A DNA stretch of 64,000 nt, from assembly GCF_030013205.1 (NCBI RefSeq), contig NZ_CP122648.1; one strand, 5' to 3'. Made by a program: the position numbers. How positions within the stretch are numbered: position 1 is the first letter of the stretch; each line of letters begins with the position of its first letter. The stretch is from Escherichia coli (lineage in GTDB: Bacteria; Pseudomonadota; Gammaproteobacteria; Enterobacterales; Enterobacteriaceae). This document shows, in pieces, positions 16,101 to 22,100 of the stretch.

Positions 16101-19100
16101 GTGGAAATGAAGGAGTATGTTAATAATAACGTTCGTATACGAACAATTAAGAGAGTAAGCAATGAAACTGATCGTCGGGATGACAGGGGCTACCGGTGCG
16201 CCTCTTGGTGTGGCATTACTGCAAGCGCTGCGGGAGATGCCGAATGTCGAGACTCATCTGGTGATGTCGAAGTGGGCGAAAACCACTATTGAACTGGAAA
16301 CGCCTTACAGCGCTCGCGATGTTGCCGCCCTCGCAGACTTCAGCCATAACCCGGCGGATCAGGCGGCGACTATCTCTTCCGGCTCCTTTCGTACCGACGG
16401 CATGATCGTTATTCCATGCAGTATGAAAACGCTCGCCGGTATCCGCGCTGGTTACGCCGATGGCCTGGTGGGGCGCGCGGCGGACGTCGTGCTCAAAGAA
16501 GGCCGCAAACTGGTGCTGGTGCCGCGTGAAATGCCGCTTAGCACAATCCATCTCGAAAATATGCTCGCACTTTCGCGCATGGGCGTGGCGATGGTGCCGC
16601 CGATGCCTGCCTTTTATAACCATCCCGAAACGGTAGATGACATTGTCCACCACGTGGTAGCCCGCGTGCTGGATCAATTTGGCCTCGAACATCCTCACGC
16701 CAGGCGCTGGCAAGGATTGCCGCAGGCCCGGAATTTTTCTCAGGAGAATGAATAATGGCATTTGATGATTTACGCAGCTTTTTACAGGCGCTTGATGACC
16801 ACGGCCAGTTACTGAAAATCAGCGAAGAGGTGAACGCGGAACCGGATCTGGCAGCCGCAGCCAACGCCACCGGGCGTATCGGCGACGGCGCGCCCGCGCT
16901 TTGGTTTGATAATATTCGCGGCTTTATCGATGCCCGCGTGGCAATGAACACCATCGGTTCCTGGCAGAACCACGCGATTTCCCTCGGCCTGCCGCCAAAC
17001 ACCCCGGTTAAAAAACAGATTGATGAGTTTATCCGCCGCTGGGATAACTTCCCCATTACCCCGGAGCGCCGCGCCAATCCAGCCTGGGCGCAGAACACCG
17101 TCGATGGCGACGAGATCAACCTGTTCGATATTCTGCCGCTGTTTCGTTTAAACGACGGTGATGGCGGTTTCTATCTCGATAAAGCGTGCGTGGTTTCCCG
17201 CGATCCGCTCGACCCGGATAACTTCGGCAAGCAGAACGTCGGCATCTACCGCATGGAAGTGAAGGGCAAACGTAAGCTCGGCCTGCAACCGGTGCCGATG
17301 CACGATATCGCTCTGCATCTGCATAAAGCGGAAGAACGCGGTGAAGATCTGCCGATTGCCATCACCCTGGGTAACGATCCGATCATCACCCTGATGGGCG
17401 CCACGCCGCTGAAATACGATCAGTCTGAGTACGAAATGGCGGGCGCGCTGCGCGAAAGCCCGTACCCGATCGCCACCGCCCCGCTGACCGGTTTTGATGT
17501 GCCGTGGGGCTCGGAAGTGATCCTCGAAGGGGTTATCGAAAGTCGTAAACGTGAGATTGAAGGGCCGTTCGGTGAGTTTACCGGCCACTACTCCGGCGGG
17601 CGTAACATGACCGTGGTGCGTATCGATAAAGTCTCTTACCGTACCAAACCGATTTTCGAATCGCTCTATCTTGGTATGCCGTGGACCGAAATCGACTACC
17701 TGATGGGGCCTGCCACCTGCGTGCCGCTGTATCAGCAACTGAAAGCCGAGTTCCCGGAAGTGCAGGCGGTAAACGCCATGTACACCCACGGCCTGTTGGC
17801 GATTATCTCCACCAAAAAACGCTACGGCGGCTTTGCCCGCGCGGTGGGCCTGCGTGCAATGACCACGCCGCACGGTCTGGGCTACGTGAAGATGGTGATT
17901 ATGGTCGATGAAGACGTTGATCCGTTCAACCTGCCGCAGGTGATGTGGGCGCTCTCCTCGAAAGTGAACCCGGCAGGCGACCTGGTGCAGTTGCCAAATA
18001 TGTCCGTGCTGGAACTCGACCCTGGCTCAAGCCCGGCGGGGATCACCGACAAGCTGATTATCGACGCCACCACGCCTGTCGCCCCGGACAACCGTGGTCA
18101 CTACAGCCAGCCGGTGGTGGATTTACCGGAAACCAAAGCCTGGGCTGAAAAACTGACCGCTATGCTGGCCGCACGTAAATAAGGAGAACAAGATGATTTG
18201 TCCACGTTGTGCTGATGAACAGATTGAAGTGATGGCGAAATCGCCGGTAAAAGATGTCTGGACAGTCTATCAGTGCCAGCATTGCCTCTATACCTGGCGC
18301 GATACCGAACCGCTTCGCCGCACCAGCCGCGAACATTACCCGGAAGCGTTTCGTATGACGCAGAAAGACATTGATGACGCGCCAATGGTGCCGAGCATTC
18401 CGCCGCTGCTGGCGGAAGGTAAGCGTTAATAAAAAGTGCCGGGTAGTGGCTTTGCTTTACCCGGCCTCATTACTTTATTTTATAAAATGACAGCCGCCCG
18501 CTTTTCGGCGATCCGGTATCAATATAAATCTGGTTTGCGAACGTCTGAATGTTATCAAACATCATATGTCCAAATATAAAATAATCAGCGCCGTTTATTT
18601 GTTGTAACTCGCCATTAAGCGATTTCTGCACACGATCAACAGGCCAGAGTAATTCTCTCTCCGCTATTTCTTTGCCAAAGAGATATTCACTCCCCGGATA
18701 ATCGGTAATGACTCCAACTTACTGATAGTGTTTTATGTTCAGATAATGCCCGATGACCTTGTCATGCAGCTCCACCGATTTTGAGAACGACAGTGACTTC
18801 CGTCCCAGCCTTGCCAGATGTTGTCTCAGATTCAGGTTATGCCGCTCAATGCGCTGAGTATAACGCTTGCTGATAACGTGCAGCTTTCCCTTCAGGCGTG
18901 ATTCATACAGCGGCCAGCCATCCGTCATCCATACCACGACCTCAAAGGCCGACAGCAGGCTCAGAAGACGCTCCAGTGTGGCCAGAGTGCGTTCACCGAA
19001 GACGTGCGCCACAACCGTCCTCCGCATCCTGTCATACGCGTAAAACAGCCAGCGCTGACGTGATTTAGCACCGACGTAGCCCCACTGTTCGTCCATTTCA

Positions 19101-22100
19101 GCGCAGACAATCACATCACTGCCCGGTTGTATGCGCGAGGTTACCGACTGCGGCCTGAGTTTTTTAAGTGGCGGAAAATCGTGTTGAGGCCAACGCCAAT
19201 AATGCGTGCACTGGCGCGACATCCGACGCCATTCATGGCCATATCAATGATTTTCTGGTGCGTACCGGGCTGAGAGGCGGCGTAAGTGAACTGTAGTTGC
19301 CATGTTTTACGGCAGTGAGAGCAGAGATAGCGCTGATGTCCGGCGGTGCTTTTGCCGTTACGCACCACCCCGTCAGTAGCTGAACAGGAGGGACAGCTGA
19401 TAGAAACAGAAGCCACTGGAGCACCTCAAAAACACCATCATACACTAAATCAGTAAGTTGGCAGCATCACCGTCGGCTTCAGGGCAAAAAGAGAGTTGAT
19501 GTAAGCGGGATTGTAATAATTGATAGTCACCATGAATATCACCAACGGCCCATATATGGCGATAGTGATGGGCATTGATTTTTTGATAGCGTGTAGATGG
19601 CATGGTTTTACCCTGTAAAATAAGCTTTCCTATTATACAGGGTATTTTTATTTGATTCGTCAGTTGTCGTTAATATTCCCGATAGCAAAAGACTATCGGG
19701 AATTGTTATTACACCAGACTCTTCAAGCGATAAATCCATTCCAGCGCCTGACGCGGGGTGAGTGAATCCGGGTCCAGGTTTTCCAGTGCCTCGACCGCAG
19801 GCGACGTTTCTTCTGGCACTGACAGCAAAGACATTTGCGTACCATCCACTTGCGTAGCGGCGGCGTTCGGCGAAATGCTTTCCAGCTCACGCAGTTTTTG
19901 CCGTGCGCGCTTAATAACCTCTTTTGGCACGCCCGCCAGAGCAGCAACCGCCAGGCCGTAGCTTTTGCTCGCCGCGCCATCCTGCACGCTGTGCATAAAG
20001 GCAATGGTGTCGCCGTGCTCCAGTGCATCAAGATGCACGTTGGCGACGCCTTCCATTTTCTCCGGTAACTGGGTTAGCTCGAAATAGTGGGTGGCAAACA
20101 ACGTCAACGCTTTAATCTTATTCGCCAGATTTTCCGCGCACGCCCACGCCAGCGACAGACCATCGTAAGTGGAGGTTCCGCGCCCAATCTCATCCATCAG
20201 CACCAGACTGTACTCGGTGGCGTTATGTAAAATATTGGCGGTTTCGGTCATCTCCACCATAAAGGTTGAACGCCCGGATGCCAGATCATCCGCTGCCCCT
20301 ACGCGGGTAAAGATGCGATCGATAGGTCCAATCTCGACTTTTTGTGCCGGTACATAGCTGCCGATGTAGGCCATCAGCGCAATCAGTGCGGTCTGGCGCA
20401 TATAGGTACTTTTACCGCCCATATTCGGACCGGTAATGATCAACATGCGACGCTGCGGCGACAGGTTCAGCGGGTTGGCGATAAATGGCTCGTTCAGTAC
20501 CTGTTCAACCACCGGATGGCGGCCTTCGGTGATGCGAATACCCGGTTTATCAATGAAGGTCGGGCAGGTGTAGTTCAGGGTATAGGCCCGCTCCGCCAGG
20601 TTAACCAGCACATCAAGTTCTGCCAGTGCGCTTGCGCTCTGTTGCAACGCTTCCAGATGCGGCAACAGCAGGTCGAACAGCTCTTCATAAAGCTGTTTTT
20701 CCAGTGCCAGTGCTTTGCCTTTTGAGGTGAGAACTTTATCTTCGTACTCTTTTAGCTCTGGAATAATGTAGCGTTCGGCGTTTTTCAGCGTCTGGCGGCG
20801 CATGTAGTTAATCGGTGCCAGATGGCTTTGTCCACGGCTGATCTGAATGTAATAACCATGCACCGCGTTAAATCCGACTTTCAGCGTGTCCAGGCCGGTA
20901 CGTTCACGCTCGCGGACTTCCAGACGCTCCAGATAATCGGTCGCGCCGTCAGCCAGCGCGCGCCACTCATCCAGCTCTTCGTTATAGCCCGATGCGATAA
21001 CACCACCGTCGCGCACCAGTACCGGCGGTGTGTCGATAATGGCCCGCTCCAGCAGATCGCGCAGTTCGGCAAACTCACCCATCTTCTCACGCAGCGCCTG
21101 TACCGGTGCACTATTGACAGTTTCTAACTGCGCGCGCAGCTCCGGCAGTTGCTGGAAAGCGTGACGCATACGGGCCAGATCGCGTGGGCGAGCAGTTCGT
21201 AAAGCCAGACGCGCCAGAATACGTTCCAGGTCGCCGACCTGACGCAGTACCGGCTGCAGCTCGGCGGTGAAATCCTGCAATGCGCCAATAGTTTGCTGGC
21301 GCTCAAGCAAGACGCGGGTATCGCGCACTGGCATATGCAGCCAGCGTTTCAGCATACGGCTGCCCATCGGCGTGACGGTGCAGTCGAGCACAGAAGCCAG
21401 CGTATTTTCCGCACCACCCGCCAGGTTCTGGGTGATTTCCAGATTACGACGCGTCGCGGCATCCATAATGATGCTGTCCTGCTCACGTTCCATGGTGATG
21501 GAACGAATATGCGGCAGAGTCGTACGTTGGGTATCTTTCGCATACTGCAACAGACAACCGGCAGCACAAAGTCCGCGCGGCGCGTTCTCGACGCCAAAAC
21601 CGACCAGATCGCGGGTCCCAAATTGCAGATTCAACTGCTGGCGCGCGGTGTCGATTTCAAACTCCCACAGCGGGCGACGGCGCAGGCCGCGACGGCCTTC
21701 AATTAACGACATTTCAGCAAAATCTTCTGCATACAGCAGTTCCGCAGGATTAGTGCGTTGCAGTTCTGCCGCCATCGTTTCCCGGTCAGCCGGTTCGCTC
21801 AGGCGAAAACGACCGGAACTGATATCCAGCGTCGCGTAGCCGAAACCTTTACTGTCCTGCCAGATAGCCGCCAGCAGGTTATCCTGACGCTCCTGCAACA
21901 GCGCTTCATCGCTGATGGTGCCCGGCGTAACGATACGCACAACTTTGCGCTCAACCGGACCTTTGCTGGTCGCTGGATCGCCAATTTGTTCGCAGATGGC
22001 AACGGACTCGCCCTGATTCACCAGTTTGGCGAGGTAGTTTTCCACCGCATGGTAGGGGATCCCCGCCATTGGGATCGGCTCTCCCGCCGAAGCACCGCGT

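What the first reader, a model, noticed from the sequence alone, without database searches (positions are those of the whole stretch)
18470..19603. pphB split by IS1 with an internal deletion and no target-site duplication
The N-terminal 44 codons of the phosphatase (MPSTRYQKINAHHYRHIW…) lie at 19471-19603 and the C-terminal 77 codons (…DYPGSEYLFGKEIAE…FYKIK*) at 18470-18703, on either side of IS1. Roughly 95-100 central codons, including the core metallophosphatase motifs, are missing. The sequences flanking IS1 (CGGATAATC versus GTCGGCTTC) are not a direct repeat, so this looks like an IS1-mediated adjacent deletion rather than a simple insertion. pphB is inactivated in this strain.
Basis: partly seen in the sequence, partly recalled or inferred. 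Interest (0 to 1): 0.5.

Follow-up and report, generated by a model that had tools for sequence, protein, structure and literature searches.

The report
IS1 insertion then adjacent deletion in pphB
A mobile element (IS1) first jumped into the phosphatase gene pphB of a pig-derived E. coli lineage and later, in this one strain, removed the 300 bases next to one of its ends; this is a textbook kind of gene decay, and closely related strains still carry the intermediate step.

Summary
An intact 768-bp IS1 (18704-19471, transposase on the minus strand) sits between pphB codons 1-44 (19472-19603) and codons 142-218 plus stop (18470-18703). The flanks, CGGATAATC and GTCGGCTTC, are not a repeat. Exactly 291 bp (97 codons) of pphB are missing.

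The window has no mismatch to swine ETEC strain ETEC4079 over 62 kb. Six sister strains differ by 1-2 SNPs in 32.7 kb. They carry the same IS1, 768/768 identical, at the same right junction. In them it has a perfect 9-bp duplication GTCGGCTTC and pphB is otherwise complete. Slightly more distant relatives have an intact pphB.

The order is therefore: intact gene, then simple IS1 insertion, then loss of 300 bp (291 bp plus one duplication copy) starting at one IS1 end. The deletion junction occurs in only 1 of 5,426 complete E. coli genomes.

One point needs correcting: pphB was already inactivated by the insertion. A second IS1 insertion followed by IS1-IS1 recombination cannot be excluded.

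A side finding is that the same 9-bp site has been hit by IS1 in at least two to three lineages, and it anchors nested one-sided deletions elsewhere.

This is an ordinary event of low interest.

The parts
18470..18703 (-). pphB 3' fragment: codons 142-218 plus the stop codon
   Evidence: The translation is. It matches NF007425 profile positions 142-218, E 2.6e-44. RefSeq annotates it as a pseudogene fragment in ETEC4079.
18695..18703 (.). New junction sequence CGGATAATC. This is pphB DNA brought next to the IS1 end by the deletion, and it is the candidate 9-bp target of the intramolecular event.
   Evidence: The 60-mer across this junction occurs in only 1 of 5,426 complete E. coli genomes, ETEC4079.
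18704..19471 (-). IS1 element, 768 bp and apparently intact. The IRR-type end is at 18704 and the IRL-type end is at 19471.
   Evidence: The ends and length are. It is 768/768 identical to the IS1 at this site in ETEC1748. The InsA and InsB' frames match the NCBIfam IS1 transposase NF033558.
18704..18726 (.). IS1 terminal inverted repeat (IRR side). This is the end from which the deletion extends.
   Evidence: GGTAATGACTCCAACTTACTGAT against the reverse complement of the other end, GGTGATGCTGCCAACTTACTGAT.
19449..19471 (.). IS1 terminal inverted repeat (IRL side). This is the unchanged insertion junction.
   Evidence: The junction 60-mer is shared at 100% with 7 swine ETEC genomes.
19141..19416 (-). 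insA reading frame (91 aa)
19159..19165 (-). A6C (AAAAAAC) motif for the programmed -1 frameshift that yields the InsAB' transposase
   Evidence: A modelled -1 shift gives an uninterrupted 232-aa InsAB'. RefSeq annotates a 'programmed frameshift'.
18719..19222 (-). insB' reading frame (167-aa ORF)
19472..19480 (.). Surviving copy of the 9-bp target-site duplication GTCGGCTTC. The other copy was lost with the deletion.
   Evidence: In ETEC1748 (L001) both copies flank the IS1. In the window only this one remains.
19472..19603 (-). pphB 5' fragment: codons 1-44
   Evidence: The translation is. It matches NF007425 profile positions 1-44, E 5.3e-24. It is annotated as a pseudogene fragment.

Best explanation
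The structure arose in two steps. In step 1, in an ancestor of a swine ETEC clade, IS1 transposed into pphB between nt 123 and 133. This duplicated the 9-bp target GTCGGCTTC (pphB nt 124-132) and split the gene after codon 44, which already inactivated it. In step 2, in the lineage of this strain only, the resident IS1 produced an adjacent deletion. Its transposase used the element's own ends to attack a target 300 bp away on the IRR side, an intramolecular transposition. The intervening 300 bp were lost: one duplication copy plus 291 bp of pphB, codons 45-141. The IS1 and its other junction stayed untouched. The order of the steps and the exact endpoints are shown by comparison with sister genomes. 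The involvement of the transposase, as opposed to host recombination, is inferred from the geometry and from the established behaviour of IS1.
For: (1) ETEC1748, 4067, 4069, 4070, 4071 and K_EC180 hold the whole query in a 2001-bp span, against 1701 bp in the window. In L001 the IS1 is 768/768 identical, is flanked by GTCGGCTTC on both sides, and pphB is otherwise complete.
(2) The window lacks exactly 300 bp relative to L001. All of it lies on the IRR side and it ends at the IS1 terminus.
(3) Relatedness over 32.7 kb: the window differs from ETEC1748 by 1 SNP and from ETEC4070 and K_EC180 by 2. Intact-pphB relatives differ by 5 (P15-25), 6 (ETEC6333) and 95 (CFSAN018748). The window shares 4 derived sites with the IS1-bearing strains.
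(4) The deletion junction is unique to ETEC4079 among 5,426 genomes, while the insertion junction is in all 7 clade members.
(5) The IS1 looks functional: it has both ends, insA, the A6C motif and insB'.
(6) The same pattern recurs elsewhere. In O25:H16 human ETEC an identical IS1 at the same right junction anchors nested deletions on the same side, and 203740 keeps 456 bp more than F5505-C1 and HMDUC-17. Strain 1506 has an IS1 in pphB with a 216-bp gap and no duplication.
(7) Two-step IS insertion followed by adjacent deletion is documented experimentally for E. coli (PMC11708052).
Against: No sequence feature distinguishes transposase-mediated deletion from recombination between this IS1 and a transient identical second copy inserted at pphB nt 424. 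The deletion endpoints share a 2-bp microhomology (TC), so the right endpoint could lie 0-2 bp outside the IS1 terminus. The site is an insertion hot spot, so an independent insertion in this strain is conceivable though unparsimonious. No reads or experiments were available.
Confidence: 0.72

Rival explanations
1. A second IS1 inserted in direct orientation at pphB nt 424 (target CGGATAATC). RecA-dependent recombination between the two IS1 copies then removed one copy and the 291 bp plus duplication copy between them.
For: This produces exactly the observed structure: one IS1, the left flank of one insertion, the right flank of the other, and no duplication. pphB is hit by IS1 at many positions in other strains. 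The genome carries about 20 IS1-matching places.
Against: It needs two events rather than one. No genome among 5,426 has an IS1 junction at CGGATAATC other than the deletion strain itself, and none shows the two-copy intermediate. The retained IS1 is 768/768 identical to the sister-strain copy, so there is no chimera signal. The nested deletion series from the same IS1 end in O25:H16 strains would need repeated extra insertions.
Confidence: 0.2
2. A one-step event: IS1 inserted independently in this strain at the hot spot, together with a simultaneous 291-bp deletion and without making a duplication.
For: The site GTCGGYTTC has been used independently in other lineages. One-step IS movements with rearrangement and no duplication have been proposed (PMC11708052).
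Against: The strain is 1-2 SNPs per 32.7 kb from six strains carrying the identical IS1 at the identical junction and orientation, and it shares derived SNPs with them. Common descent of the insertion is far more parsimonious.
Confidence: 0.03
3. A transposase-independent deletion, by replication slippage or illegitimate recombination at a short repeat, that happens to end at the IS1 boundary. Alternatively, an assembly artefact.
For: There is a 2-bp TC microhomology at the endpoints. The window and the RefSeq record disagree in a nearby repeat, the tRNA-Arg array, which shows that repeat-copy errors or variation exist in these assemblies.
Against: Two bp of homology is expected by chance in about 1 in 16 cases. 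An endpoint within 0-2 bp of an IS terminus is very unlikely for a random deletion. The same junction appears both in the window and in a record that is not byte-identical to it. Anchoring at the IS end recurs in other lineages.
Confidence: 0.05

Closest known systems
IS1-promoted adjacent deletions (classical gal/lac observations of the 1970s-80s; intramolecular transposition model). Recalled from established knowledge, not re-read here.
   Same: The IS stays in place and is intact. The deletion starts at one IS terminus and runs into flanking DNA. The other junction is unchanged. The target-site duplication is lost.
   Different: Nothing mechanistic differs. Here the event is seen in a natural isolate, with the precursor allele preserved in sister strains, and the deletion is short (300 bp).
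Two-step 'IS insertion then adjacent deletion' events in the E. coli long-term evolution experiment (PMC11708052)
   Same: The insertion with a duplication is seen first. A later deletion is anchored at the IS and the duplication is lost. The deletions sometimes extend over time, as in the O25:H16 series.
   Different: Those 14 events involved IS150 (IS3 family), not IS1, and were tracked over time in the laboratory rather than inferred from sister genomes.
MGE insertion hot spots near pphA/pphB reported by Durrant et al. (bioRxiv 10.1101/527788)
   Same: pphB is named there as lying near a recurrent mobile-element insertion hot spot in E. coli. Searches show repeated IS1 hits in and just 3' of pphB.
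   Different: That survey (single mention found) reports the hot spot only. As far as I read it, the exact 9-bp site, the resemblance to the IS1 end and the ensuing one-sided deletions are not described there.
Mosaic mutS-rpoS region of E. coli (PMC4209514)
   Same: The event lies in this known variable region. Here the O157-type MarR and hydroxyarylic acid decarboxylase BCD genes replace the K-12 ygbI-ygbN genes.
   Different: The known mosaicism concerns large lineage-specific blocks. The present event is a recent small IS1-driven decay of pphB within one clone.

Membership tests
IS1 family insertion sequence | About 768 bp long, with imperfect terminal inverted repeats of about 23 bp | tested here: met
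   The element is 768 bp. The ends GGTAATGACTCCAACTTACTGAT and GGTGATGCTGCCAACTTACTGAT match at 19 of 23 positions.
IS1 family insertion sequence | insA and insB' frames joined by a -1 frameshift at an A6C motif, with the transposase matching the IS1 family model | tested here: met
   The AAAAAAC motif is at IS1 nt 307. The modelled fusion gives a 232-aa open frame. NF033558 is matched by both parts, at 86 and 148 bits.
IS1 family insertion sequence | 9-bp target-site duplication on insertion | tested here: met
   It is absent in the window. The same element in sister strain ETEC1748 is flanked by a perfect GTCGGCTTC repeat. Other IS1 copies in pphB also show 9-bp duplications.
PphB (PrpB) protein-serine/threonine phosphatase 2, NCBIfam NF007425 | Full-length match above the curated cut-off (332 bits) | tested here: not met
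   The intact allele in relatives scores 463 bits over 1-218. The window holds only profile positions 1-44 (85 bits) and 142-218 (151 bits) on either side of IS1. It is therefore a pseudogene, not a member protein.
PphB (PrpB) protein-serine/threonine phosphatase 2, NCBIfam NF007425 | Metallophosphatase motifs GDXHG, GDXXDRG and GNHE present in one polypeptide | tested here: not met
   GDNIDRG (50-56) and GNHE (76-79) lie in the deleted codons 45-141. Only GDIHG (21-25) remains.
PphB (PrpB) protein-serine/threonine phosphatase 2, NCBIfam NF007425 | Chromosomal position next to mutS | tested here: met
   mutS ends at 19709, which is 105 bp from the pphB start codon. Intact-pphB relatives have the same arrangement.
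IS-mediated adjacent deletion | A precursor allele with the same IS at the same site, carrying its duplication | tested here: met
   Six sister genomes carry it. They are 1-2 SNPs per 32.7 kb from the window.
IS-mediated adjacent deletion | The IS is retained intact, one junction is unchanged, and the deletion starts exactly at the other terminus | tested here: met
   The IS1 is 768/768 identical. The right junction is identical. The 300 bp removed abut the IRR terminus, with a 2-bp placement ambiguity.
IS-mediated adjacent deletion | Dependence on the transposase rather than on homologous recombination between two IS copies | not testable with these tools
   This needs genetics, using recA and transposase mutants. 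The only indirect evidence is that no two-copy intermediate was found in 5,426 genomes.

The most novel reading that the evidence does not exclude
The 9-bp site GTCGGYTTC (pphB nt 124-132) is a sequence-directed IS1 insertion hot spot. The DNA covering it (AAATAAGTAAGTCGGC) matches the subterminal IRL sequence of IS1 (AAATCAGTAAGTTGGC) at 14 of 16 positions. The site has been used in the same orientation by different IS1 variants in at least two to three lineages. Once occupied, it acts as a fixed anchor from which DNA is eroded only away from mutS. On this reading IS1 is a recurrent contributor to the mosaic structure of the mutS-rpoS region.
Probability: 0.3. Interest if true: 0.3.

Novelty: already known. 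Interest (0 to 1): 0.1.

Why it matters
It matters little beyond strain-level annotation. pphB is one of two small PPP-type phosphatases. It is present at 80% coverage or more in 5,377 of 5,426 complete E. coli genomes, so its loss in a swine ETEC clade is a minor lineage marker. The deletion junction is a unique marker for the ETEC4079 lineage. The case is a clean natural example of the insertion, adjacent deletion and further erosion pathway of IS-driven gene decay, with each stage preserved in a sequenced genome. The recurrent use of one 9-bp target could be of modest interest for IS1 target choice.

Tried and rejected
(1) I searched JGI metagenome contigs for exact 32-mers across the deletion junction and across the insertion junction (the latter written degenerately to cover allelic variants). 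Both scans gave 0 hits, so there is no information on environmental frequency. IS junctions are seldom assembled from short reads.
(2) I looked for papers on these strains (ETEC4079, ETEC1748, CP122643) and found none in the library.
(3) I looked by eye for an IHF-like consensus (WATCAANNNNTTR) around the hot spot and found no convincing match. This was not pursued.
(4) I considered that the orientation of IS1 copies in pphB is biased, since all the mapped ones share the orientation. I rejected this as a finding because the search only joins same-strand pieces and so selects for that orientation.
(5) I considered that the window is literally NZ_CP122643.1. That is not quite so: it is identical to position 62357, and then the window has one extra tRNA-Arg unit.
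(6) I did not measure the exact size of the multi-kb deletions in the O25:H16 strains. Only their relative difference of 456 bp was measured.
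Full report
**What is in the sequence**

Reading 18200-19900 and checking it by script shows a 768-bp element at 18704-19471. Its ends are those of IS1: GGTAATGACTCCAACTTACTGAT at the left and, in reverse complement, GGTGATGCTGCCAACTTACTGAT at the right.

On the minus strand the element carries:
- insA (19141-19416)
- an AAAAAAC frameshift motif (19159-19165)
- the insB' frame (18719-19222)

A modelled -1 shift gives an uninterrupted 232-aa InsAB'. Both parts match the NCBIfam IS1 transposase model NF033558.

To the right of the IS1, the minus strand of 19472-19603 encodes pphB codons 1-44. 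To the left, 18470-18703 encodes codons 142-218 and the stop codon. The nine bases on either side are CGGATAATC and GTCGGCTTC, which are not a repeat. No other IS1 end occurs in the 64-kb window.

There is a one-base slip (19471 belongs to IS1). In fact GDNIDRG, GNHE and H140 are in the missing part, but GDIHG and the C-terminal GH are retained.

**Where the window comes from, and the key comparison**

A megablast of 18200-19900 against 5,426 complete E. coli genomes gave one record with the query in a single 1701-bp piece at 100%. This is ETEC4079, from pig faeces in Belgium. Six records held the whole query at 99.9-100% in two pieces spanning 2001 bp: ETEC1748, 4067, 4069, 4070, 4071 and K_EC180. 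Others held the two flanks at 100% spanning 1224 bp with no IS1: CFSAN018748, O139:H1 P15-25, W13-16 and ETEC6333.

The arithmetic fits one history. The 1224-bp span is the 933 bp of flank plus the 291 missing bases. The 2001-bp span is 1701 + 291 + 9.

Direct comparison confirms this history:
- In CFSAN018748, pphB is an intact 657-bp gene of 218 aa, scoring 463 bits on NF007425 against a cut-off of 332.
- In ETEC1748 the same IS1, 768/768 identical, sits at the same right junction. It is flanked on both sides by GTCGGCTTC (pphB nt 124-132), and the rest of pphB is complete.
- The window differs from ETEC1748 only by lacking 300 bp. These are the left copy of the duplication plus pphB nt 133-423 (codons 45-141). 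All of it lies on the IRR side and abuts the IS1 terminus.
- The endpoints share only 2 bp (TC).

**Order of events**

Over 32.7 kb of flanking sequence, with the CRISPR array and the IS1 excluded, SNP counts against the window are as follows.

| Strain | pphB state | SNPs vs window |
|---|---|---|
| ETEC1748 | IS1 + duplication | 1 |
| ETEC4070 | IS1 + duplication | 2 |
| K_EC180 | IS1 + duplication | 2 |
| P15-25 | intact | 5 |
| ETEC6333 | intact | 6 |
| CFSAN018748 | intact | 95 |

Four sites (6036, 23674, 31573, 33016) unite the window with the IS1-bearing strains against the nearest intact-pphB strains. One site (29368) is private to the window and ETEC4079.

The 60-mer across the insertion junction is present at 100% in all seven clade members. 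The 60-mer across the deletion junction is present only in ETEC4079.

A deleted allele cannot regain 291 bp, so the polarity is: intact gene, then IS1 with duplication, then IS1 with the adjacent 300 bp lost. pphB was therefore already broken after codon 44 before the deletion. The deletion is later decay of a dead gene.

**Mechanism**

The geometry has four features: a resident intact IS, one junction untouched, a deletion beginning at the other terminus, and loss of that side's duplication copy. This is the signature of an IS-promoted adjacent deletion. For IS1 this is classically explained by intramolecular transposition of the element's ends into a nearby target. That explanation is established knowledge and was not tested here.

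A recent analysis of the long-term evolution experiment documents the same two-step sequence for IS150, including deletions that grow with time (PMC11708052).

Other E. coli lineages give independent support:
- In O25:H16 human ETEC, an identical IS1 at the very same right junction is followed by deletions running through the ygbI-ygbK region into ygbL. There are two nested endpoints 456 bp apart: 203740 against F5505-C1 and HMDUC-17.
- Strain 1506 has an IS1 in pphB with a 216-bp gap and no duplication.

All the deletions with a known precursor run away from mutS. The mutS stop codon lies only 237 bp from the IS1, so selection against mutS loss would explain the one-sidedness. This is inference.

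**Rivals**

- **Second IS1 and recombination.** A second IS1 inserted at nt 424, followed by IS1-IS1 recombination, gives the same product and cannot be excluded from sequence. It needs an extra event. No trace of such an insertion or of a two-copy intermediate exists in 5,426 genomes, and the retained IS1 shows no chimerism.
- **One-step insertion with deletion.** An independent one-step event at this hot spot is contradicted by the near-identity to the IS1+TSD strains.
- **Slippage.** Slippage on 2 bp of homology that happens to end at an IS terminus is improbable.
- **Misassembly.** This is improbable. The junction occurs both in the window and in a RefSeq record that is not byte-identical to it.

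**Side finding: a recurrent IS1 target**

The insertion junction also occurs, with allelic differences, in nine genomes outside the swine clade.
- PRO_A-1443 and fS25a have an IS1A-type element, 717/768 identical to the window's, with the duplication GTCGGTTTC in a K-12-type ygbI-pphB context.
- The O25:H16 group has a third IS1 variant, 745/768 identical.

The swine-clade insertion is demonstrably recent. The same nine bases have therefore been used, in the same orientation, at least twice and probably three times.

Further IS1 copies map to nt 148-156, 279-287 and 563-571, and to three sites just 3' of pphB.

The DNA covering the hot spot, AAATAAGTAAGTCGGC, matches the subterminal IRL sequence of IS1, AAATCAGTAAGTTGGC, at 14 of 16 positions. 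Only 3 of 2000 random stretches of the window matched an IS1 end as well. Older work on Tn9 and IS1 hot spots reported such end homologies; this is my recollection and was not re-read. Durrant et al. already list pphA and pphB as lying near MGE insertion hot spots (10.1101/527788).

pphB itself is nearly universal. It is present at 80% coverage or more in 5,377 of 5,426 genomes.

**Verdict**

It is sharpened by the sister-strain intermediate and by the exact endpoints. The phenomenon is textbook, and the pseudogene fragments and the IS1 are already annotated in the public record. Interest is low. The only mildly novel thread is the precise, repeatedly used IS1 target and the one-directional erosion it seeds in the mutS-rpoS variable region (PMC4209514).

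Noticed in passing
window 19472-19480 and the corresponding site in L001, L004, L005, L006, L022: The same 9-bp pphB target (GTCGGYTTC, nt 124-132) carries IS1 in the same orientation in at least two to three unrelated lineages with different IS1 variants. The DNA over it matches the IS1 IRL subterminal sequence at 14 of 16 positions (3 of 2000 random stretches do as well).
   Followed up: partly
L004, L006, L022 (HMDUC-17, 203740, F5505-C1): Human O25:H16-type ETEC have an identical IS1 at the same pphB junction. Multi-kb deletions remove the rest of pphB and ygbI-ygbK and part of ygbL. The two nested endpoints are 456 bp apart, which is a stepwise erosion series anchored at one IS1 end.
   Followed up: partly
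L004 versus L022, right flank of IS1: HMDUC-17 and F5505-C1 share the IS1 and the left junction exactly but differ at 9 of 300 bases in the pphB-mutS flank. This suggests recombination in mutS-proximal DNA after the IS1 event.
   Followed up: no
window 61928-62516: The window has tRNA-Ser(GCT) followed by three tRNA-Arg(ACG) genes. The otherwise identical ETEC4079 RefSeq record has two, a 276-bp difference. This is either copy-number variation or an assembly collapse in the tandem tRNA array, and it shows the window is not byte-identical to that record.
   Followed up: partly
window 29368 (hypA-hycA intergenic region): There is a single G (A in all six compared relatives) private to the window and ETEC4079. 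It is the only difference from ETEC1748 in 32.7 kb.
   Followed up: no
window 15608-18429: Between rpoS and pphB this strain has the MarR-family regulator and the hydroxyarylic acid decarboxylase B, C and D genes instead of the K-12 ygbI-ygbN block. This is one of the known alternative forms of the mosaic mutS-rpoS region.
   Followed up: no
window 1-4347: A type I-E cas operon (casB to cas2e) is followed by a CRISPR array annotated at 3953-4347. The array length differs among close relatives: P15-25 is shorter, and ETEC6333 has no array annotated.
   Followed up: no
window 37423-38150: A HigB-family toxin and HTH antitoxin pair lies between hycI and ascB.
   Followed up: no
L020 (strain 1506): This is another independent IS1 in pphB with no duplication and 216 bp missing (flanks at pphB nt 117 and 334). 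It is a parallel case of IS1 plus adjacent deletion in the same gene.
   Followed up: partly
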